Assembly (NCBI GenBank): GCA_963701505.1
Contig: CAVOZZ010000012.1
Coordinates: 80,219-144,218, forward strand
Direction of reading: 5' to 3'
Length of the DNA: 64,000 bases
From: an uncultured Gammaproteobacteria bacterium
GTDB lineage: Bacteria > Pseudomonadota > Gammaproteobacteria > UBA9214
Shown one piece after another: positions 43,695 through 51,234 of the stretch. The first letter of the stretch is position 1. Every line of letters starts with the position of its first letter. The notes beneath the pieces were generated by a model. That model worked only from the letters and a program-made list of their open reading frames with translations, was not told the origin of the DNA and ran no database searches. The position numbers and the translations under genes are program-made.

Positions 43695-45437
43695 ATGGCT
43701 ACCCGGGACAAGATTTACATCGAGCAGATAAAGCTGCTCAGCGAAAACATCCCGCGCGGCCAGCTCCTCAATATGGTGATTGCCCTGGCGTTTGCGCTTG
43801 TCATGCTGATACAGTCAAGCAGAGCCGCCGTGATCTCCTGGCTTGCGCTTCTTTATGGTGTATCCCTTATCCGCCATCTCCTGCACAAATATTATTTCCC
43901 ACCGGCCAATAACAAGCCGATAACGGTCCACACACGCCACTTCTATGCCGCCGCATCGGCAATGGCCGGCACCGTATGGGGTAGCGCAATGTTCTTCTTC
44001 AAGCCGGAAACCCTGGGCGAAATGCTGCCCATCGCCTTGATCCTCGCCGGTGTGATGGCCGGGGGAATCAGCGTACTTTCCTACCTGAAGGAATCCTATG
44101 CGAGTTTTGCAACCCCCATCGCCATCACGCTAATAACGGGTTTCTTTACGATGGGCCAGCAGACGGCAACGGTTATGGGATACATGCTCATCATCTATAC
44201 AGCTGCCTGCCTGTATTTCAGCCGCTCATTCAACAAGGTTCTGACCGAGACCCTGCGGCTAGAGCATCGCAATGATGCGCTTATGGCTGAGTTGCGAAAA
44301 GAGAAAGAAATGGCGGAACAGGCTAACAGGGCGAAATCCAGATTTCTCGCCGCGGCAAGCCACGATTTACGGCAGCCGCTGCACGCGCTGTCCCTGTTGT
44401 TCGAGGCAATCAAGGAGGCCGATTCCATTGAACTCAGGAGATCACTGTATCCGAAAATCGAGATGTCCATAGAGGCACTGAGTGGCCTTTTTAATGCACT
44501 GCTTGACATATCGAAGCTGGATGCCGGTGTAGTCGAGGCAAACCTCGAGGACTTTTATATTCAGGATGTTATCAAGGCGACAATGCATGAATATGAAACG
44601 CAGGCGGAAAACAAAAATCTTTCGATGAGAGTGCATTGCAGCGACAGCATCGTATATTCCGATCGTGTCTTCCTGGAGCGCATCATCAGAAACCTGTTAA
44701 GTAACGCCGTTCGCTATACCGAGGCAGGCGGGGTGCTGGTGTCATGCCGCAAGCGTGGCGATCGTGTCATGTTTCAGGTCTGGGATACGGGGATCGGCAT
44801 CCCTGAGGCAGAAATCAGCACCGTATTCAGTGAATTTTACCAGCTGCATAATATCCACAGAGACAGAAGCCAGGGACTTGGGCTCGGTCTTTCCATTGTA
44901 CGGAGACTCTGCGAGCTGCTGGATCATCCTGTTGAACTGAGCTCAAGGCCGGGCACTGGCAGTGTAGTCACTATTCTGATACCCGCTGGAAATCCACAAC
45001 ATGTTCGGAAAGAGAATCATCCTGCAGCGGCCTCGCCCTGGGACTTGACCGGGCTATGTGTGCTGGTTATTGATGATGATATCGAGGTCCTGGCCGCGAC
45101 TTCCGTGTTGCTGAAAAAGTGGGGTTGTCAGGTAATTACCGCGCTGTCATCCAGTGATGCCCTAGACAAGATCACCGCAGCAGCGGCAAAACCGGACTTC
45201 GCGTTATCCGACCTGCGCCTGCCTGGTAACCAAAACGGCATACAGGCGCTGGATGCAATACGCAGCAGGCTGGGCACCGATATCCCTGCAATCCTGATAA
45301 CGGGCGACACCCGGCCGGAACGAATTAACCTTGCCCGGCAAAGTGGGTACAAGGTATTACACAAGCCGCTGAAACCTGCACAACTGCGTACGGCCATTCA
45401 CCAGCTGCTCACTTCCCGTGCAGTTATTACTGGATAA
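43695..45437 (+). CDS. Hybrid sensor histidine kinase (multi-TM sensor, HisKA, HATPase_c and receiver)
   Basis: About six N-terminal TM segments have no large periplasmic loop. The H-box reads RFLAAASHDLRQPLHAL, with N/G boxes (RNLLSNAVRYT, DTGIGI, GLGLSIV). The C-terminal REC domain reads VLVIDDD...LSDLRLPG...LHKP. The ORF is open from 43656. Confidence 0.88.
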   Translation: MATRDKIYIEQIKLLSENIPRGQLLNMVIALAFALVMLIQSSRAAVISWLALLYGVSLIRHLLHKYYFPPANNKPITVHTRHFYAAASAMAGTVWGSAMFFFKPETLGEMLPIALILAGVMAGGISVLSYLKESYASFATPIAITLITGFFTMGQQTATVMGYMLIIYTAACLYFSRSFNKVLTETLRLEHRNDALMAELRKEKEMAEQANRAKSRFLAAASHDLRQPLHALSLLFEAIKEADSIELRRSLYPKIEMSIEALSGLFNALLDISKLDAGVVEANLEDFYIQDVIKATMHEYETQAENKNLSMRVHCSDSIVYSDRVFLERIIRNLLSNAVRYTEAGGVLVSCRKRGDRVMFQVWDTGIGIPEAEISTVFSEFYQLHNIHRDRSQGLGLGLSIVRRLCELLDHPVELSSRPGTGSVVTILIPAGNPQHVRKENHPAAASPWDLTGLCVLVIDDDIEVLAATSVLLKKWGCQVITALSSSDALDKITAAAAKPDFALSDLRLPGNQNGIQALDAIRSRLGTDIPAILITGDTRPERINLARQSGYKVLHKPLKPAQLRTAIHQLLTSRAVITG

Positions 45438-46077
45438 GTCCATGGTGACGGGCAATACTGACACATTCAGTCCTGTTTGCAGCACCGAGTGCCCGCAACA
45501 GCGCGCTTACATGTACCTTGACAGTATTTTCAGTCAGTAACAGCATCCGCGATATCTGCTTGTTTGAATATCCGCTGGCCAGTAATTTCAGAACTTCATA
45601 TTGTCTTTTGGTGATACCACAGTTGCCGGGCACGTCATGCACATGCTTGTCATATGCCTGCAGCGGCGGCTGGCGCTGGATTTGATTATGGACTTCATCG
45701 GGTATGAAGATCCCACCCTCCATGACGGTACGGAGCGCGCCAAGCAATTTCTTCCCGGAGTAGGATTTGGGTATAAACCCCATGGCGCCCGCTGCAATCA
45801 CCGCGCTGATGGCATGCGGGTCATCTTCTCCCGAGATAATGATGATTGGCAGACAGGTATTGCGGACACGTTTGTGTTGCATGATCGACAGAGCATCCAG
45901 TCCCGGCATGTGCAGATCCAGCAGCACAAGATCCAGTGCGGCACCTGAATCCAGATGGCTCACTGCCTCATCGGCGGAGGTGGCCTCCATGATTTCAACA
46001 TGATCATCGAGCAAGTTGATAAAATGCCGTATACCATCGATGAACAAAGGGTGATCATCAACGATCAGAATATGCAC
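45427..46077 (-). CDS. NarL/FixJ(LuxR)-family response regulator
   Basis: The REC domain reads MHILIVDDHPLF...LLDLHMPGLD. The C-terminal HTH_LuxR reads ITKRQYEVLKLLASGYSNKQISRMLLLTENTVKVHVSALL. The 3' end overlaps the kinase 3' end by 11 nt (convergent). Confidence 0.9.
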   Translation of the reverse strand: MHILIVDDHPLFIDGIRHFINLLDDHVEIMEATSADEAVSHLDSGAALDLVLLDLHMPGLDALSIMQHKRVRNTCLPIIIISGEDDPHAISAVIAAGAMGFIPKSYSGKKLLGALRTVMEGGIFIPDEVHNQIQRQPPLQAYDKHVHDVPGNCGITKRQYEVLKLLASGYSNKQISRMLLLTENTVKVHVSALLRALGAANRTECVSIARHHGLIQ

Positions 46078-46319
46078 TGACAGACCCCAGTATCTGAATG
46101 CTTGTTCCCTTCTTCACTGCACCACGCTCGTGCATTGCACAGTAATTATAAACAAATCCAGTACATGAAAGTTAATACTTTTGTGTAATTGCACTCCTGC
46201 ATATTGCGCAGTACATTTTGCGCAAGCCTGAAACGAGGTTGTATCTATGCGGGCCAGGGATATGCATGCCGGCACGCACAGCAACAACGGTAACAGGACT
46301 GCGTTAACGGAGGACGATA

Positions 46320-46457
46320 ATGGACACCATTAAAGGACTGATAATTATTTTACTGCTGTTTGCGGCACCTGTGATTGCAGGAGAATACGCGGGCTACAAC
46401 ACTACTGCAGGCAGCCCGACGAACCCGGTACAGAAACCGGATAAAGATTGCGAATAA
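46320..46457 (+). CDS. Candidate 45-aa secreted peptide (not in ORF track)
   Basis: A strong SD (GGAGGA, 46309-46314) lies 5 nt before the ATG. The peptide is MDTIKGLIIILLLFAAPVIAGEYAGYNTTAGSPTNPVQKPDKDCE, with a signal-peptide-like N-terminus. It is upstream of and co-directional with the CpxP-like gene. Confidence 0.4.
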   Translation: MDTIKGLIIILLLFAAPVIAGEYAGYNTTAGSPTNPVQKPDKDCE

Positions 46458-46539
46458 TATCGACAGAGCCAGTTCCGTTGTTTTTTGACTCGCCGGTACG
46501 CATCGCAAGAGGACGGATATACGCAAGTACGGCAAGAAC

Positions 46540-47052
46540 ATGAAACATGCTGGCATCTTTTTCGCATTCTTGTTTTTTTGCACTGCTGCACAGGCAAAGC
46601 ACAACAGTGACCACCCCCTGTCTCCCGAGGACTGGAAGGAAGTCATGGAAAAAGTTGTTCTCCTGGAGAACTCTGGTCTCATGCCGACGCTGCTTCCGGT
46701 CATCATGAGCAATAGAGACATACTTCAGCTCACTGATGAACAGATAAATTCATTCCGCGCATGGCGAAAGAACAACTACACACACATGGTAAACGTCATG
46801 AATGAAATTATCGAGAAGATGGTTCAGTTTCGCGTTGAGTCCTTAAGACCAAGCGTCAGCAGTGAACAGCTCATTGCATTTCAGTCAGAAATACAGGGAT
46901 TACAGCGCCGGCTTTTGGTAATAAAACTTTCCTGCAGGGATCTTGTCATGAAAAGTTTCACCACTACACAATGGGAGAACTTTGCATTCGTCGTTTCTGA
47001 CAATCCCAGGCTTGCAAGCCTTATGTCTCAGGACAACCCGGGATCACACTGA
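46540..47052 (+). CDS. Periplasmic CpxP/Spy-like protein (LTXXQ motif)
   Basis: The signal peptide is MKHAGIFFAFLFFCTAAQA. The protein is helical with one LTDEQ (LTXXQ) motif (LQLTDEQINSFRAW). The family assignment is tentative. Confidence 0.55.
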   Translation: MKHAGIFFAFLFFCTAAQAKHNSDHPLSPEDWKEVMEKVVLLENSGLMPTLLPVIMSNRDILQLTDEQINSFRAWRKNNYTHMVNVMNEIIEKMVQFRVESLRPSVSSEQLIAFQSEIQGLQRRLLVIKLSCRDLVMKSFTTTQWENFAFVVSDNPRLASLMSQDNPGSH

Positions 47053-47332
47053 TCTGAGCAAATGCGATGGCTCAATCGTGTATCCGTATCAGGGATGACG
47101 TTAGTGCGAAGCAAACAACAAGATCCGCGCGCTTCAGGACACAGGGTGGTACGGGGAGTATTCAGGCATCAAAGAAGGTTGTGGCAGGATGCCGATCCGC
47201 AGCTATGGAAAACAAGGCCCGTGTTGCCCTGCCAGCGGTGCGGAGACCGTAACAGACTGGAGTGACAGAACTAACTAGCGGCTATGCAACACGGCCCGGT
47301 TTCCCGGACCGTGTATCCTGCTGGACTCAATC

Positions 47333-47674
47333 CTATTCAGGCAGCCTGGGAGGAGGAGGAGTTTGCTCCTTGCCACTTGAGGGATTTACCACGATGGTGC
47401 TTGGCTGGCCGCCATAGCCCGGATAGCCTCCCCAGCCACCATAAGGGCCACCCCAGCCATAGGGGCCACCCCCGTAGGGCCCGTAGCCATAGGGACCATA
47501 GCCCCCGTAGTAACCACGGCCATACCGGTAATAATCATCATCGTCGTCGTCAAACCAGTCACCCGGGTTCATCATGTTGCCCATATTGAAGGCGTGTGCG
47601 ATGTTCGTCACCGCAAGAATTGCCACGCCAAGGGCTGCTGCTGTCGCTACTGAAGTGATTTTTTTCCGATTCAT
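47333..47674 (-). CDS. Secreted Gly/Tyr-rich low-complexity protein, sulfur-globule-protein (SgpA/SgpB)-like
   Basis: A GAGG SD precedes the start. The signal peptide is MNRKKITSVATAAALGVAILAVTNIAHA. The mature part has a DDDDDD run and then YYRYGRGYYGGYGPYGYGPYGGGPYGWGGPYGGWGGYPGYGG. Confidence 0.6.
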   Translation of the reverse strand: MNRKKITSVATAAALGVAILAVTNIAHAFNMGNMMNPGDWFDDDDDDYYRYGRGYYGGYGPYGYGPYGGGPYGWGGPYGGWGGYPGYGGQPSTIVVNPSSGKEQTPPPPRLPE

Positions 47675-47854
47675 TGGCGGTTACCTCACGTTTCTCGTTA
47701 TCTAATACGAACCTGGGTTCGAACAGTTTAAACCAGTATCCGGGCGGATCAACTGTCTCTGCGCACACCTTGAAAGGGAGCCGCCCCGATGCACTTGCCG
47801 GTTAATGATAATCGGCATGCATTTTTTTATTTATTTGGCAACGTTACAATGATA

Positions 47855-47895
47855 TATACAACCATATTGTGTGATTTACAACCATATTGCATGAT
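47855..47895. promoter_or_regulatory. Two tandem 20-bp direct repeats in an AT-rich divergent promoter region
   Basis: TACAACCATATTGTGTGAT lies at 47857-47875 and TACAACCATATTGCATGAT at 47877-47895. They match at 17 of 19 positions with a 20-bp period. They are about 180 bp from each of the divergent starts at 47674 and 48077. Confidence 0.4.
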
Positions 47896-48076
47896 AATGT
47901 TATGAAACGGTGCTCTGGTACCAGGCGCAAGGAAAAAATACTCAGCTGAGCGATCTGCATAATACATTCGCTCAGAATCAGGGAAATGGTGCCCGTTTCG
48001 AATCCTTTATGGAAGGACCATGTGCCAGCAGATTGCCTGGTTTGTGGTGTCAAACAAAACCGCCCGGGGGGTAATA

Positions 48077-48817
48077 ATGAAAAAGCTGCCGCTATTGTTA
48101 ATTCTGATTCTGCCAATCATCTGTCAGGCAGAGGCCTACCAATCGACACTGTTGGTACAAACCGGTCAAATGCGCGAGAGTGATCTCATCGTGCGTACCG
48201 TTACTGACCTGGAAAGCAGCAAGATCTGCCTGGCATTTTATATTCGAACCACCGGCACGAGTCCGGTAATGAATTGTTATGATGCCGTGGGCGGATATGC
48301 CGCCAATATCAATCAGGTCGGGCACTTCAAGGAACAACAGCTGATTGTCCGTAAAATGAAGGATACCGTGAACGATGTGTCTTGCCTGGTGGCTTATGTC
48401 GGCACACCGGGGACCTCACCTTCCATTGACTGCTACAAAAGCAGAAAGTCTGCCACCGATGACCTGGTGCGAAGCGGGCATTTGCGTGAGGGCGACCTCG
48501 ATGTATACCGGGTCATCGACAAGGACAGTACCAAGACCTGCCTGGTTGCCTATGTTGCCACCGGGGGTACCGCACCTTCGCTGAAGTGCTATAACAGTCA
48601 AGCAGGAGACAAGGGTGGCCTGGTGCAGAACAGCTTTTTACGTGAGGGTGACCTCATTGTGCGCAAGATCGTCGATCGGGCCAACAATAAAGAATGCCTG
48701 ATTTCCTATGTCAGTACAGAGGGCACCTCTCCAAGCATCAACTGCTTCGATGTGGAGTCGGTGCCCCCGGCCAGCAGTGCCCCAAAGACATCCATCCCGG
48801 TCACCCCGAATCGCTGA
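48077..48817 (+). CDS. Secreted protein made of four tandem ~52-aa Cys-containing repeats (unrecognised domain)
   Basis: The signal peptide is MKKLPLLLILILPIICQA. The repeat consensus is (L/F)RE.(D/Q)L.V(R/Y)(K/R)..D......CL(V/I)(A/S)YV.T.GT(S/A)PS..C(Y/F), present four times. The C-terminal tail is Pro/Ser-rich. Confidence 0.7.
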   Translation: MKKLPLLLILILPIICQAEAYQSTLLVQTGQMRESDLIVRTVTDLESSKICLAFYIRTTGTSPVMNCYDAVGGYAANINQVGHFKEQQLIVRKMKDTVNDVSCLVAYVGTPGTSPSIDCYKSRKSATDDLVRSGHLREGDLDVYRVIDKDSTKTCLVAYVATGGTAPSLKCYNSQAGDKGGLVQNSFLREGDLIVRKIVDRANNKECLISYVSTEGTSPSINCFDVESVPPASSAPKTSIPVTPNR

Positions 48818-48856
48818 GACAAACTGCAAGCACTGGCCAGGGATTTAAAGACGGCA

Positions 48857-48888
48857 TGACATGATCCCCCGGCGGGGGGATCATGTCA
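48857..48888. terminator. Strong hairpin between convergent genes
   Basis: TGACATGATCCCCC-ggcg-GGGGGATCATGTCA forms a 14-bp perfect stem. The flanking T-runs are weak. Confidence 0.55.
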
Positions 48889-48971
48889 GTTGTGCGTTGA
48901 AATAGCGGCTGATCTTTGGTTGTTTGCACCACCCTGCACTGCCTTCCCCTGCAGACACGATGGAGTGGTTT

Positions 48972-49796
48972 TCAGAAACTGGCAGTCACATATAAAACCG
49001 GGCCTTTGTAATCGATATCATATTTGTCTTTTCTGTTAGATTTATTAATCGTCAGATCCATATTAATGTAGTTGTAACCGACACCCACACCAAAATGGTC
49101 GGTCAGACGGTAGTCAAGATTGGCCGCGAGCGTCAGGAGATTACCGTCATAGTCATCGTAATTCAGGCCAAACCAGCCGGCGGAGCCATCCAGCGACAGT
49201 TTCGGTGTAAAGGCATAGGTGCCATAGCCAAGGACATTCGGCAACGGCGCTGTCAGATCGACCGAGTCTGACTGTACACTGCCGCTCGCATTGTTGATGC
49301 CGCCACTGACCTTGAGTTTCGTATCGAACCTCACGAGGTGCACACCAGCACCGATACCAAGTTCGGCACGTTCATTCTTCAGCAAGGAATAACCGACCTG
49401 GGTGATATAAAAGTCCGTTTTGAACTTCGTATCGACGGCCAGAAAACCCGAGGCCTCAATATCTCCAAAGTCCAGATCATCGAAATTCTCACGGACGTTG
49501 CCGTTAACATCCAGACCGAAATAATCGAAGGTAAGACGCCAGCGCTCAGTAAAGCGCCAGCGTGCAGAGAATGCCGCGTTTGTTTCCGTGTCATCAACAC
49601 CCAAATCACTGGTTGTGAGCTTTTCCGTGGGGTCACCCTCGCGCGTGGAACTAAAGCTACCGTCAGCCTTCAGCCAGCTGGCCCCGAGCTTGAAGGTAAA
49701 TTTGTCATCCAGGACGGGATTAAGCGCGTTGCCGGCAGCATTGACCGAGTATGAAAGGACACTTCCAAACAGTAACGCCAATAGTCGTAGTTTCAT
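48972..49796 (-). CDS. Outer-membrane beta-barrel protein
   Basis: The signal peptide is MKLRLLALLFGSVLSYSVNA. The sequence has alternating amphipathic strands and a C-terminal ...GPVLYVTASF with a terminal Phe. Confidence 0.7.
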   Translation of the reverse strand: MKLRLLALLFGSVLSYSVNAAGNALNPVLDDKFTFKLGASWLKADGSFSSTREGDPTEKLTTSDLGVDDTETNAAFSARWRFTERWRLTFDYFGLDVNGNVRENFDDLDFGDIEASGFLAVDTKFKTDFYITQVGYSLLKNERAELGIGAGVHLVRFDTKLKVSGGINNASGSVQSDSVDLTAPLPNVLGYGTYAFTPKLSLDGSAGWFGLNYDDYDGNLLTLAANLDYRLTDHFGVGVGYNYINMDLTINKSNRKDKYDIDYKGPVLYVTASF

Positions 49797-49887
49797 CTAG
49801 CAATCTCCTGATTAATGCCCGTCATCGGCGAGCCGGATAGGCAGATTCTACCGGGTTAAGCAGAAAAATGAACTACTTTACAACAGA

Positions 49888-51234
49888 CTACCTGCTCTGC
49901 CGAGCTTGAAAGAGGTGATACCGCTCCACTACCCGCTTGCTGATTTCGCCCAGGTTCCAGCGCAGACCGATCGTAACCACGTTACCCAGGGCCTCTCCAT
50001 CAGTCAGGTGACCACCATCAAACTTCACATTTGCATAGATCATGTTCTGAAAACCATCATGTGAATAGCGCAGGCCGAGGACACCGTACTTGACTTCATA
50101 GTCACCACTCAAGGGGTCACTGTCAGGACGCAGGTAGTTCCAGCCGCCCGTCAACCATATCTTTTCACGTAGCTGGTATTGGCCGTATACCTCCCAGCCC
50201 CAGCCATCAAAGTACTTGCCCTGGTCCGTTGTTTGCTGGTTCAGCAAGCGTGATACCACGGTCCCCAGATACCATTTTTCACCAAACTGGCGGGTGCCCA
50301 CGAGGAGAGCATGTACATTGCCATCGAGTCCGGCCTCACGGATAGCGGGGTCATCACGGTCATTTATTTCCGCGAAGTTATAGGCAATCCCGAGCGAAAA
50401 ATCAGGCCTGATCTGGTGAATGCCGCTCAGGCCGACGGCCGTGCCGTAACGGGCACCATCGACAAGCGGAATGGGCTCACCCTGCTGCACCTGCAGGTTC
50501 AGGTTAAACGGTTTTATGCCAATGACCTCGGGTAATTTACCCATGTGCAGGCGTGTCTGTATGACGGACTGCGCCCGGCCCGTGCCGGTGGCACCGCCAT
50601 CCGTGCCCGCATTGTAGGCTCCGGATGCATCCCCGCCGGTACCGGCAAAGCGATCGGTAAAACCGGCCACCTTGTAATAGGTTGACCAGCTCTTGCCGTA
50701 TGTCAGGAAATAGCCGGGCGCTTCTAAACCGACATACAACAGGCGCTTGAAAAAACTGTTGCCGTCCTTCCCTTCCGGCGCGCTATCCTTGCTGTCGATC
50801 AGGAAATCCAGTTCACTCAGCAGATTGAAACCCAGCTCGGCGCGTCCGAAGACCTTCAGCTTTGGAAGCAACTGGTACTGCGCATCGGCACCCACCCGCG
50901 ATCCGCCGTCTGACAGTGCATAATCACTGCCATCGGTACTGCGAAATCGGAGGCGGTAGTTTCCATAGAGACTGTAATCATATTTTTTGACTGCAGGCTG
51001 CACGGGTACCTCCAGGGTCTTGACCTCCTGCTCGCTCATGGGGTCTTCACTGGCGCCTGCCTCACGATCAACCGCCTCCTGCGTGGCGGCTATTTCAACC
51101 TCCGTAGGCTCATCTTTACTCGCAGCCGTGGACTGTCCATCCGCAGGGGACGCACCTGAAGCATCGGCAGGACTTGCGGCATGCAGTGTCCACGGTATTA
51201 GACACAGCGCCAGGCTGATGAGGAAAACTTTCAT
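49888..51234 (-). CDS. Porin-like outer-membrane beta-barrel protein with acidic N-terminal extension
   Basis: The signal peptide is MKVFLISLALCLIPWTLHA. Porin-like strands follow (YSLYGNYRLRF, RVGADAQYQL, LLYVGLEAPGYFLTYGKSWS, VTIGLRWNL). The 20-aa basic tail after the last strand is atypical. Confidence 0.7.
   Translation of the reverse strand: MKVFLISLALCLIPWTLHAASPADASGASPADGQSTAASKDEPTEVEIAATQEAVDREAGASEDPMSEQEVKTLEVPVQPAVKKYDYSLYGNYRLRFRSTDGSDYALSDGGSRVGADAQYQLLPKLKVFGRAELGFNLLSELDFLIDSKDSAPEGKDGNSFFKRLLYVGLEAPGYFLTYGKSWSTYYKVAGFTDRFAGTGGDASGAYNAGTDGGATGTGRAQSVIQTRLHMGKLPEVIGIKPFNLNLQVQQGEPIPLVDGARYGTAVGLSGIHQIRPDFSLGIAYNFAEINDRDDPAIREAGLDGNVHALLVGTRQFGEKWYLGTVVSRLLNQQTTDQGKYFDGWGWEVYGQYQLREKIWLTGGWNYLRPDSDPLSGDYEVKYGVLGLRYSHDGFQNMIYANVKFDGGHLTDGEALGNVVTIGLRWNLGEISKRVVERYHLFQARQSR

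What the first reader, a model, noticed from the sequence alone, without database searches (positions are those of the whole stretch)
48077..48817. Secreted protein composed of four copies of an unrecognised ~52-aa two-cysteine repeat
SEEN. After a signal peptide, the mature protein is four tandem units:
- ...MRESDLIVRTVTDLESSKICLAFYIRTTGTSPVMNCYD
- FKEQQLIVRKMKDTVNDVSCLVAYVGTPGTSPSIDCYK
- LREGDLDVYRVIDKDSTKTCLVAYVATGGTAPSLKCYN
- LREGDLIVRKIVDRANNKECLISYVSTEGTSPSINCFD

Each unit has two invariant Cys residues spaced 16 residues apart. A Pro/Ser-rich tail follows the last unit.

INFERENCE. I cannot assign this repeat to any domain family I know. The regular Cys pairs suggest four disulfide-stapled beta-hairpin or beta-sandwich modules, possibly lectin-like or adhesin-like. 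The gene is paired divergently with the Gly/Tyr-rich gene.
Basis: partly seen in the sequence, partly recalled or inferred. Interest (0 to 1): 0.6.

Follow-up and report, generated by a model that had tools for sequence, protein, structure and literature searches.

The report
Four-repeat beta protein with Gly/Tyr partner
This is a real, expressed gene for an exported protein made of four 52-residue two-cysteine beta repeats that match no described family. It always sits back-to-back with a secreted glycine/tyrosine-rich protein, and the pair occurs only in sulfur-oxidising sediment bacteria, so it may be an undescribed accessory part of their sulfur-storage machinery.

Summary
Window 48077-48817 (+) encodes a 246-aa protein: a Sec signal peptide, four gap-free 52-aa units, each with two Cys 16 residues apart, and a disordered Pro/Ser tail.

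- **Repeat signal:** the units are 37-46% identical in register (z = 27 against shuffles). dN/dS is 0.15-0.21.
- **No known family:** no Pfam, NCBIfam or PDB sequence match reaches threshold.
- **Fold:** AlphaFold2 gives a confident compact all-beta model (pLDDT 88, pTM 0.84) with 16 strands, four per unit. Foldseek finds only weak, local matches to beta-propeller blades (TM at most 0.27).
- **Distribution:** the family occurs only in uncultured Gammaproteobacteria. All 10 carrier genomes in a 400-genome class sample have dsrA (background 31%), and 8 of 10 have canonical sulfur-globule protein genes (background 14%).
- **Partner:** in every locus examined the gene is divergent from a secreted Gly/Tyr/Trp/Pro-rich protein. 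This partner resembles sulfur-globule proteins in composition but does not match their Pfam model.
- **Inheritance and expression:** the pair duplicates and diverges as a unit and shares a conserved intergenic tandem repeat. Both genes are transcribed in sediment metatranscriptomes.

Most likely reading: a two-protein extracytoplasmic module, plausibly an accessory part of the sulfur-globule envelope. The function remains inferred.

The parts
48077..48817 (+). CDS of the four-repeat protein (246 aa plus stop)
   Evidence: Translation; 539 homologues, all 'hypothetical'; dN/dS 0.15-0.21; RNA contigs at 47934-48165, 47948-48261, 48270-48454 and 48290-48530.
48077..48136 (+). Sec signal peptide (residues 1-20, MKKLPLLLILILPIICQAEA, cleavage after A-E-A)
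   Evidence: Read directly from the sequence. The A-x-A motif is conserved in orthologues while Cys16 is not. pLDDT is below 50. No signal-peptide predictor was available.
48140..48295 (+). Repeat unit 1 (residues 22-73; Cys51, Cys67)
   Evidence: four strands E26-34, E37-44, E49-56, E64-69.
48296..48451 (+). Repeat unit 2 (residues 74-125; Cys103, Cys119)
48452..48607 (+). Repeat unit 3 (residues 126-177; Cys155, Cys171)
48608..48763 (+). Repeat unit 4 (residues 178-229; Cys207, Cys223)
48764..48814 (+). Disordered Pro/Ser-rich C-terminal tail (residues 230-246)
   Evidence: pLDDT below 50. Length and sequence vary between orthologues, with two near-invariant Pro.
47333..47674 (-). Divergent partner gene: 113-aa exported Gly/Tyr/Trp/Pro-rich protein. 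Conserved features are the mature N-terminus FNMGNMMNPxxWF, an acidic run, GYGPYG/GPYGWGG repeats and the C-terminus TIVVNPS...PPRLPE.
   Evidence: Present next to the four-repeat gene in every locus examined. RNA contigs at 47279-47703 and 47369-47705. Not a Pfam SGP member.
47857..47889 (+). Tandem 20-bp-spaced direct repeat TACAACCATATTG (47857-47869 and 47877-47889) in the shared divergent promoter region. It overlaps a -35-like TTTACA (47875-47880), with TGTTAT at 47898-47903.
   Evidence: Conserved in all loci of the window's own family. Exact copies in the 2.55-Mb genome occur only at the two module loci. RNA contigs of the four-repeat gene begin just downstream, at 47934 and 47948. The promoter assignment is inference; the consensus scan did not call it.
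48857..48888 (+). Perfect 14-bp GC-rich hairpin 40 nt after the stop codon (terminator-like, no strong T tract)
   Evidence: I2; sequence.

Best explanation
The gene encodes a Sec-exported, compact all-beta protein built from four ancient 52-residue repeats. Each repeat is a four-stranded antiparallel meander, probably stapled by one disulfide between strands 3 and 4. The protein works outside the cytoplasm together with the product of the divergent neighbour, a secreted low-complexity Gly/Tyr/Trp/Pro-rich protein. The two genes form an autonomous, co-regulated, co-inherited module. The module occurs only in Gammaproteobacteria that oxidise stored sulfur through reverse Dsr, and the partner has the composition of sulfur-globule envelope proteins. 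The most likely role is therefore an accessory component of the periplasmic sulfur-globule envelope or matrix, in which the folded four-fold protein binds, organises or chaperones the repetitive Gly/Tyr-rich partner. Shown: the anatomy, conservation, pairing, distribution and transcription. Inferred: disulfides, physical interaction, globule localisation and function.
For: Anatomy and reality of the gene. Confident compact fold of 16 strands: pLDDT 81.6 / pTM 0.75 for the full protein and 87.8 / 0.84 for the mature core. The partner lies next to the gene, divergently, in every locus examined: the window, its paralogue, five MAGs found by the search for related loci, and the 17 loci from the whole-genome searches, which include four other families. 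Flanking genes differ between loci. The two pairs in this genome co-diverge. The C5 pair is closest to the L006 pair (89% for the four-repeat protein, 84% for the partner) and the window pair to the L003 pair (95% / 92%). The shared intergenic tandem repeat is conserved and unique to the module loci. Distribution: 25 of 54 genomes of the order; 10 of 400 class-level genomes, in 5 families. All 10 carriers have dsrA, against 124/401 overall. Eight of 10 have Pfam SGP genes, against 58/401 overall (Fisher p = 4e-6, not corrected for phylogeny). This genome has three canonical SGP genes. The partner shares the signal peptide, the GYGPYGYG motifs and the keratin / plant glycine-rich-protein-like composition of those proteins. 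Both genes are transcribed in four sediment or estuary metatranscriptomes. In three of them the pair is almost the only part of a 20-kb stretch that is covered.
Against: There is no direct evidence of localisation or interaction. The partner does not match Pfam SGP (0/14 members at E <= 10), and the hhalign similarity is confined to low-complexity repeats. The association with SGP is largely explained by the association with dsr: about 43% of dsrA-positive genomes have SGP. Only five independent families carry the module. The module is dispensable: 11 of 26 high-quality genomes of the order lack it. The module-specific cis element is absent from the canonical sgp genes. In the best-covered metatranscriptome the canonical sgp gene has a word depth of 109-225, against 3.5-5 for the module, so the module is not a major coat protein there. 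No sulfur-metabolism genes are consistently adjacent. DsbA-like genes exist, but no DsbB was found in this 83%-complete MAG, so disulfide formation is unproven.
Confidence: 0.45

Rival explanations
1. A general cell-envelope or periplasmic structural or stress module unrelated to sulfur storage. The Gly/Tyr-rich protein would form a matrix, coat or condensate in the periplasm or on the cell surface, and the four-repeat protein would be its folded scaffold or chaperone. The restriction to sulfur oxidisers would then reflect shared ancestry and habitat (sulfidic sediment) rather than function.
For: In the window the pair lies in a block of exported and envelope genes: a CpxP-like protein, a two-component system, an outer-membrane beta-barrel and a porin. 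Distribution is patchy and accessory. Expression is moderate compared with canonical sgp. The partner fails the SGP model. Only five families carry the module, so the dsr association is statistically weak after allowing for phylogeny.
Against: All ten carriers have dsrA against a 31% background. The partner's composition and motifs match those of this genome's canonical Sgp proteins. The envelope-gene neighbourhood is not conserved in other genomes.
Confidence: 0.3
2. The eight cysteines are functional rather than structural. Each cross-strand Cys pair would reversibly carry sulfane sulfur (persulfide, trisulfide or polysulfide bridges). The protein would then be a periplasmic sulfur carrier or an anchor for sulfur chains at the globule surface, docked there by the Gly/Tyr-rich partner.
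For: Both Cys are invariant in every unit of every orthologue. They lie on neighbouring antiparallel strands. By general structural knowledge this geometry often gives strained, redox-labile disulfides; that point is inference. The family is restricted to dsr-positive sulfur oxidisers whose periplasm sees sulfide and polysulfide. No DsbB was detected.
Against: Invariant Cys pairs are equally expected for structural disulfides in an exported beta protein. There is no resemblance to known sulfur-carrier folds such as SoxYZ, rhodanese or TusA/DsrE. Model coordinates could not be inspected, so the geometry is unverified.
Confidence: 0.1
3. One reading: a secreted lectin- or adhesin-like protein in which each repeat binds a carbohydrate or surface ligand.
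For: Internal four-fold repetition is typical of multivalent lectins. Weak Foldseek hits include the propeller lectin RSL and sialidase propellers.
Against: Those hits have TM 0.18-0.26 and E around 1e-3 to 1e-2, which is blade-level similarity only. No carbohydrate-related genes are consistently nearby; glycosyltransferase genes flank the pair in only one of the contexts examined (L033). This idea does not explain the strict pairing with the Gly/Tyr-rich protein.
Confidence: 0.07
4. A glycine-rich bacteriocin (the partner) with a periplasmic immunity protein (the four-repeat protein).
For: Gly-rich small exported peptides include class II microcins (general knowledge). There are sub-threshold hits to the CdiI_N immunity domain in 36/42 members, best E 3e-5.
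Against: The partner has an ordinary Sec signal peptide and there is no dedicated exporter. Both genes are strongly conserved across families (58-95% identity), unlike fast-diversifying toxin/immunity pairs. The CdiI_N hit covers only 38 residues, lies below the curated cut-off in the window's own protein (13.3 bits against 25), and its recurrence is not independent evidence in so conserved a family.
Confidence: 0.03

Closest known systems
Sulfur-globule envelope proteins SgpA/SgpB/SgpC of Allochromatium vinosum and relatives (Pfam SGP, PF17228). This is the closest match for the partner gene and for the module's proposed role.
   Same: Small, Sec-exported, low-complexity proteins rich in regularly spaced Gly and aromatic residues. 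They share GYGPYGYG-type motifs with this genome's own SGP genes and occur in dsr-positive sulfur oxidisers. Periplasmic targeting of Sgp proteins by signal peptides is described in PMC10386293.
   Different: The partner does not match the SGP model (0/14). It has its own conserved termini (FNMGNMMNPxxWF ... TIVVNPS..PPRLPE). It is always coupled to a folded Cys-containing protein, which is not described for any sgp gene. It is expressed far below canonical sgp in one metatranscriptome.
Beta-propeller repeat proteins, such as the propeller domains of prolyl oligopeptidase/PREPL, bacterial sialidases and the RSL lectin; four-bladed hemopexin-like domains are the formal analogue
   Same: Tandem repeats of about 50 residues, each predicted to form a four-stranded antiparallel meander, in one compact domain. 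Propellers dominate the Foldseek hit lists.
   Different: The best TM-score is 0.27 with rmsd 12-20 A, so there is no global match. No propeller family in Pfam matches. The strands are unusually long (8-9 residues). Each unit has an intra-unit Cys pair.
SgpD (Alvin_2515) of Allochromatium vinosum
   Same: A Sec-exported, non-canonical protein shown to coat sulfur globules yet dispensable for their formation (PMC10386293). This is a precedent for accessory globule proteins that the SGP model does not detect.
   Different: SgpD is predicted to be helical or coiled-coil with Pro-spaced repeats (PMC10386293). It has no sequence or fold relationship to the all-beta four-repeat protein.

Membership tests
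Pfam SGP (PF17228), sulfur globule proteins: tested on the partner gene | Match to the family HMM above the gathering score (26.7 bits) | tested here: not met
   A whole-genome scan with PF17228 at E <= 1 finds three or four other loci but neither partner gene. 0 of 14 partner orthologues hit SGP at E <= 10.
Pfam SGP (PF17228), sulfur globule proteins: tested on the partner gene | Small Sec-exported protein rich in regularly spaced Gly and aromatic residues | tested here: met
   Signal peptide ending A-H-A / A-Q-A; 33-53% G+Y(+W); GYGPYG/GPYGWGG repeats. Weak hits to plant glycine-rich protein (Pfam GRP) and keratin head. hhalign gives 96% probability over the repeat region only.
Pfam SGP (PF17228), sulfur globule proteins: tested on the partner gene | Physical location in the envelope of periplasmic sulfur globules | not testable with these tools
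   Needs microscopy or proteomics. The organisms are uncultured MAGs.
Beta-propeller fold: tested on the four-repeat protein | Repeats that each form a four-stranded antiparallel sheet (blade) | tested here: met
   DSSP on two AlphaFold2 models gives 16 strands, four per 52-aa unit.
Beta-propeller fold: tested on the four-repeat protein | Blades arranged in a closed ring, giving global structural similarity to solved propellers | tested here: inconclusive
   Propellers top the Foldseek lists but with TM <= 0.27 and rmsd > 12 A. No hemopexin-type four-bladed hit appears in the 50 rows shown.
Beta-propeller fold: tested on the four-repeat protein | Sequence match to a known propeller repeat family (WD40, Kelch, PQQ, FG-GAP, hemopexin, BNR and others) | tested here: not met
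   No such family appears at E <= 1 in Pfam for the protein or for 42 orthologues. NCBIfam finds none.
Any described protein family or solved structure: tested on the four-repeat protein | Profile hit above the curated threshold | tested here: not met
   In the window's own protein the best Pfam hits are DUF2977 (19.5 bits against a cut-off of 21), CdiI_N (13.3 against 25) and DUF4807 (13.6 against 27), each over a short segment. Across 42 orthologues the same three families recur at best E-values of 1.2e-4, 3e-5 and 0.015. A PDB profile search with the whole-protein alignment and with the single-unit alignment gives nothing better than E = 1.1. phmmer against 1.84 billion representatives finds only the family itself, plus three low-complexity or repeat hits judged spurious.

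The most novel reading that the evidence does not exclude
The four-repeat protein is the missing proteinaceous sulfur handler of periplasmic sulfur globules in a group of chemolithotrophic sediment Gammaproteobacteria. Its four invariant cross-strand Cys pairs would carry or terminate polysulfane chains, as organic end groups or persulfide/trisulfide shuttles. The Gly/Tyr-rich partner would dock it to the globule surface. That would give a new fold and a new mechanism for depositing or mobilising stored sulfur.
Probability: 0.08. Interest if true: 0.85.

Novelty: new variant of a known kind. Interest (0 to 1): 0.5.

Why it matters
How periplasmic sulfur globules are built, bounded and mobilised is still poorly understood. 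Only four envelope proteins are known, all from one purple sulfur bacterium. Here a conserved, transcribed two-gene module is restricted to dsr-type sulfur oxidisers that are abundant in marine, estuarine and freshwater sediments. It pairs an Sgp-like low-complexity protein with a folded, cysteine-bearing repeat protein of an undescribed family. That gives a concrete, testable candidate for a new globule-associated component. The confident model has no global structural neighbour, so the repeat is also a candidate for a new domain family entry.

Tried and rejected
- **Pfam and NCBIfam** on the protein, its neighbours and 42 orthologues gave only sub-threshold noise.
- **PDB sequence-profile searches** with the whole-protein and single-unit alignments found nothing.
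- **Foldseek** of two AlphaFold2 models against PDB, and of the first against BFVD, gave only blade-level similarity. The fold class (closed four-bladed ring or another packing) could not be settled because model coordinates are not exposed.
- **Distant phmmer hits:** P0148 and P0151 are SprB-like repeat proteins that match only an 'ATGGTAPY' segment, and P0153 is an unrelated repeat protein. I rejected all three as spurious.
- **Single-unit profile** against 400 genomes of the phylum, to look for other architectures of the repeat, matched nothing outside this genome.
- **Shared regulon with canonical sgp genes:** exact copies of the intergenic tandem repeat occur only at the two module loci, so this was rejected.
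- **Sigma-54 promoter** in the conserved intergenic element: rejected on spacing and on the absence of the GG/GC dinucleotides (reading). The sigma-70 consensus scan calls nothing there either.
- **MITE or inverted-repeat flanks**, as noted for an orthologue elsewhere, are absent in this window.
- **Conserved neighbours beyond the pair:** none. A multihaem cytochrome/TPR gene recurs in only three loci.
- **Literature search** for such a protein in sulfur-globule work found nothing relevant.
- **Organism names** could not be obtained; all carriers are unnamed MAGs.

Full report
**1.

The ORF list shows a + strand frame from 48020 to 48817. The start at 48077 is preceded by GGGGG-N5 and is the start shared by orthologues, whereas the sequence upstream diverges. 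Residues 1-20 form a typical Sec signal peptide ending A-E-A. Its Cys16 is not conserved and has no lipobox, so cleavage by signal peptidase I to give a mature YQSTLLVQTG... end is the natural reading (sequence inspection).

The eight remaining Cys lie at 51/67, 103/119, 155/171 and 207/223. The spacing is 16 and the period exactly 52, with no indel. In register the four units are 37-46% identical. The summed BLOSUM62 score is 27 standard deviations above 5000 shuffles. DNA identity between units is only 44-58%, so this is an ancient internal quadruplication, not a recent slippage. A profile of 44 non-redundant units has D23, C30, G39, T40, P42 and C46 invariant. dN/dS against the paralogue and two orthologues is 0.15-0.21. 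A perfect 14-bp hairpin follows the stop codon.

**2. No described family matches**

- Pfam and NCBIfam give nothing above threshold for the protein.
- Among 42 orthologues, only short sub-threshold matches recur (CdiI_N, DUF4807, DUF2977). In so conserved a family, recurrence is not independent evidence.
- Profile searches of all PDB sequences with the full alignment and with the single-unit alignment return nothing better than E = 1.1.
- phmmer against 1.84 billion cluster representatives finds 32 proteins. These are the family itself (full-length members down to 58% identity) plus three distant hits. Two are SprB-like repeat proteins that share only an 'ATGGTAPY' stretch, and the third is an unrelated repeat protein. 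I regard all three as spurious.
- The unit profile finds no other architecture in 400 genomes of the phylum.

**3. Predicted structure**

AlphaFold2 with 42 homologues gives pLDDT 81.6 and pTM 0.75. The mature core alone, with 50 sequences, gives pLDDT 87.8 and pTM 0.84. Both models have 16 strands, four per unit: a long hairpin of 9 + 8 residues, an 8-residue strand carrying the first Cys, a 7-residue loop holding the invariant G-T-x-P, and a 6-residue strand carrying the second Cys. The two Cys are thus on adjacent antiparallel strands, consistent with one intra-unit disulfide. I could not inspect coordinates, so this remains inference. DsbA-like genes are present, but no DsbB was found in this 83%-complete MAG.

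Foldseek against PDB (twice) and BFVD returns mainly beta-propellers: prolyl-oligopeptidase family, sialidases, nucleoporins and the RSL lectin. The values are weak, with E at best about 4e-4, TM <= 0.27 and rmsd > 12 A. The units therefore resemble propeller blades locally. The high pTM says they pack into one domain, and no solved structure matches globally. Whether the domain is a closed four-bladed ring is unresolved.

**4. The gene is half of a conserved two-gene module**

The divergent neighbour (47333-47674, -) encodes a 113-aa protein. It has a signal peptide, a conserved mature N-terminus (FNMGNMMNPGDWF), an Asp run, GYGPYG/GPYGWGG repeats and a conserved C-terminus (TIVVNPSSG...PPPRLPE).

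The same arrangement is found in:

- the paralogous copy on contig C5 of this genome;
- five MAG contigs from the species collection;
- all 17 loci returned by the whole-genome searches, including four other families.

Two partner genes look frame-shifted inside the repeat (L023, L025). Genes beyond the pair differ from locus to locus. The two pairs in this genome co-diverge. The C5 pair is closest to the L006 pair (89% for the four-repeat protein, 84% for the partner) and the window pair to the L003 pair (95% / 92%). Pairs are therefore inherited or exchanged as units.

The roughly 400-bp spacer carries a 20-bp-spaced direct repeat, TACAACCATATTG (47857 and 47877). It is conserved in all loci of the family. 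In this genome it occurs exactly only at the two module loci. A related GATTT(T)G(A/G)CACAA element is seen in the distant families.

**5. Where the module occurs**

All homologues come from metagenomes or MAGs and are annotated 'hypothetical'. DNA and RNA runs that hold the locus are from sediment, estuary and freshwater-sediment samples.

| Sample | Genomes with the gene |
|---|---|
| The window's own order (one family, six genera) | 25 of 54 overall; 15 of 26 high-quality genomes |
| Evenly drawn class-level sample | 10 of 400, in five families |

Among the 10 class-level carriers:

- All ten have dsrA, against 124 of 401 in the same sample.
- Eight of ten have canonical Pfam SGP genes, against 58 of 401 (Fisher p = 4e-6).
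- Only one has photosynthetic reaction-centre genes, so most are chemolithotrophs.

There are two caveats. Only five families are independent. SGP is itself found in about 43% of dsrA-positive genomes, so the SGP enrichment adds little beyond the dsr association.

This genome has three canonical SGP genes. Their products share the partner's style (signal peptide, GYGRGYG...GPYGYG). However, the partner fails the SGP model (0/14), and the hhalign match covers only the low-complexity repeats.

**6. Expression**

Contigs from four metatranscriptomes, identical to the window, cover both genes:

- Partner: 47279-47703 and 47369-47705.
- Four-repeat gene: 47934-48165, 47948-48261, 48270-48454 and 48290-48530.

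In three of the libraries these are almost the only covered parts of a 20-kb stretch. That argues against DNA carry-over and for above-average expression. In the best-covered library the canonical sgp gene reaches a word depth of 109-225, against 3.5-5 for the module. The module is therefore not a dominant coat protein in that sample.

**7. Interpretation**

Firmly established: this is a real, expressed gene under purifying selection for an exported all-beta four-repeat protein of an undescribed family. It is obligatorily paired with a secreted Gly/aromatic-rich protein, and it is confined to dsr-type sulfur-oxidising Gammaproteobacteria.

My preferred mechanism (confidence 0.45) is that the pair is an accessory component of the periplasmic sulfur-globule envelope or matrix. 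The pseudo-four-fold folded protein would bind or organise its repetitive partner.

Rival readings:

- a sulfur-independent envelope module (0.30);
- a sulfane-sulfur carrier using the Cys pairs (0.10);
- a lectin or adhesin (0.07);
- a bacteriocin/immunity pair (0.03).

An earlier follow-up in this scan, on an orthologue in another genome, reached essentially the same anatomy and reading. It is not independent evidence.

Noticed in passing
window 47857-47889 (and L002, L015-L025): The 20-bp-spaced tandem repeat TACAACCATATTG between the divergent genes is conserved across the family. In this genome it occurs exactly only at the two module loci. Each unit contains a short ACAA-N5-TTGT palindrome. 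This is probably the binding site of an unidentified dedicated regulator.
   Followed up: partly
L004 6851-7348 (same sequence as L016 885-1382): One MAG carries a third gene directly downstream of the four-repeat gene. It encodes a 165-aa secreted Gly/Tyr/Pro-rich protein with the same mature N-terminal motif (AFDMGNMMNPSKW) but a charged, helix-like C-terminus (EAEIRRLKERLRQLE).
   Followed up: no
L023 786-1106; L025 (partner ORF); G042:C7:366109-366844; G437:C45:7038-7736: Some copies look damaged. Two partner genes change frame inside the GY repeat. One four-repeat gene is split into two overlapping frames, and one contains an in-frame TAG. These could be assembly errors in repetitive DNA or real decay of a dispensable module.
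   Followed up: no
G000:C6:11924-12229 (L010 1492-1896): The canonical sulfur-globule protein gene of this genome is very highly represented in metatranscriptome X7 (contig word depth 109-225, against 3-11 in its flanks). The organism is therefore actively making globule coat protein in situ.
   Followed up: partly
whole genome G000: No DsbB (PF02600) was detected, although three DsbA-family loci are present. Either the gene lies in the missing 17% of the MAG or another DsbA oxidant (for example VKOR-type) is used.
   Followed up: no
L006 7615-9858; L031 4546-6918; L032 1570-4377: A large multihaem cytochrome (c554-like) fused to TPR repeats lies next to the pair in three otherwise different contexts. 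It is not present in the window.
   Followed up: no
window 44000-50000: GC content falls to 0.49-0.53 around the module, against 0.55-0.62 in most of the window. Together with the patchy distribution, this is compatible with horizontal acquisition of an envelope-gene block. No flanking inverted repeats or mobility genes were seen around the pair.
   Followed up: partly
window 46540-47052: A 170-aa secreted helical protein lies upstream of the partner gene and next to a hybrid kinase / LuxR-type regulator pair. It has no family hit (best Pfam E = 0.11). No RNA contigs covered it in any of the four metatranscriptomes.
   Followed up: no
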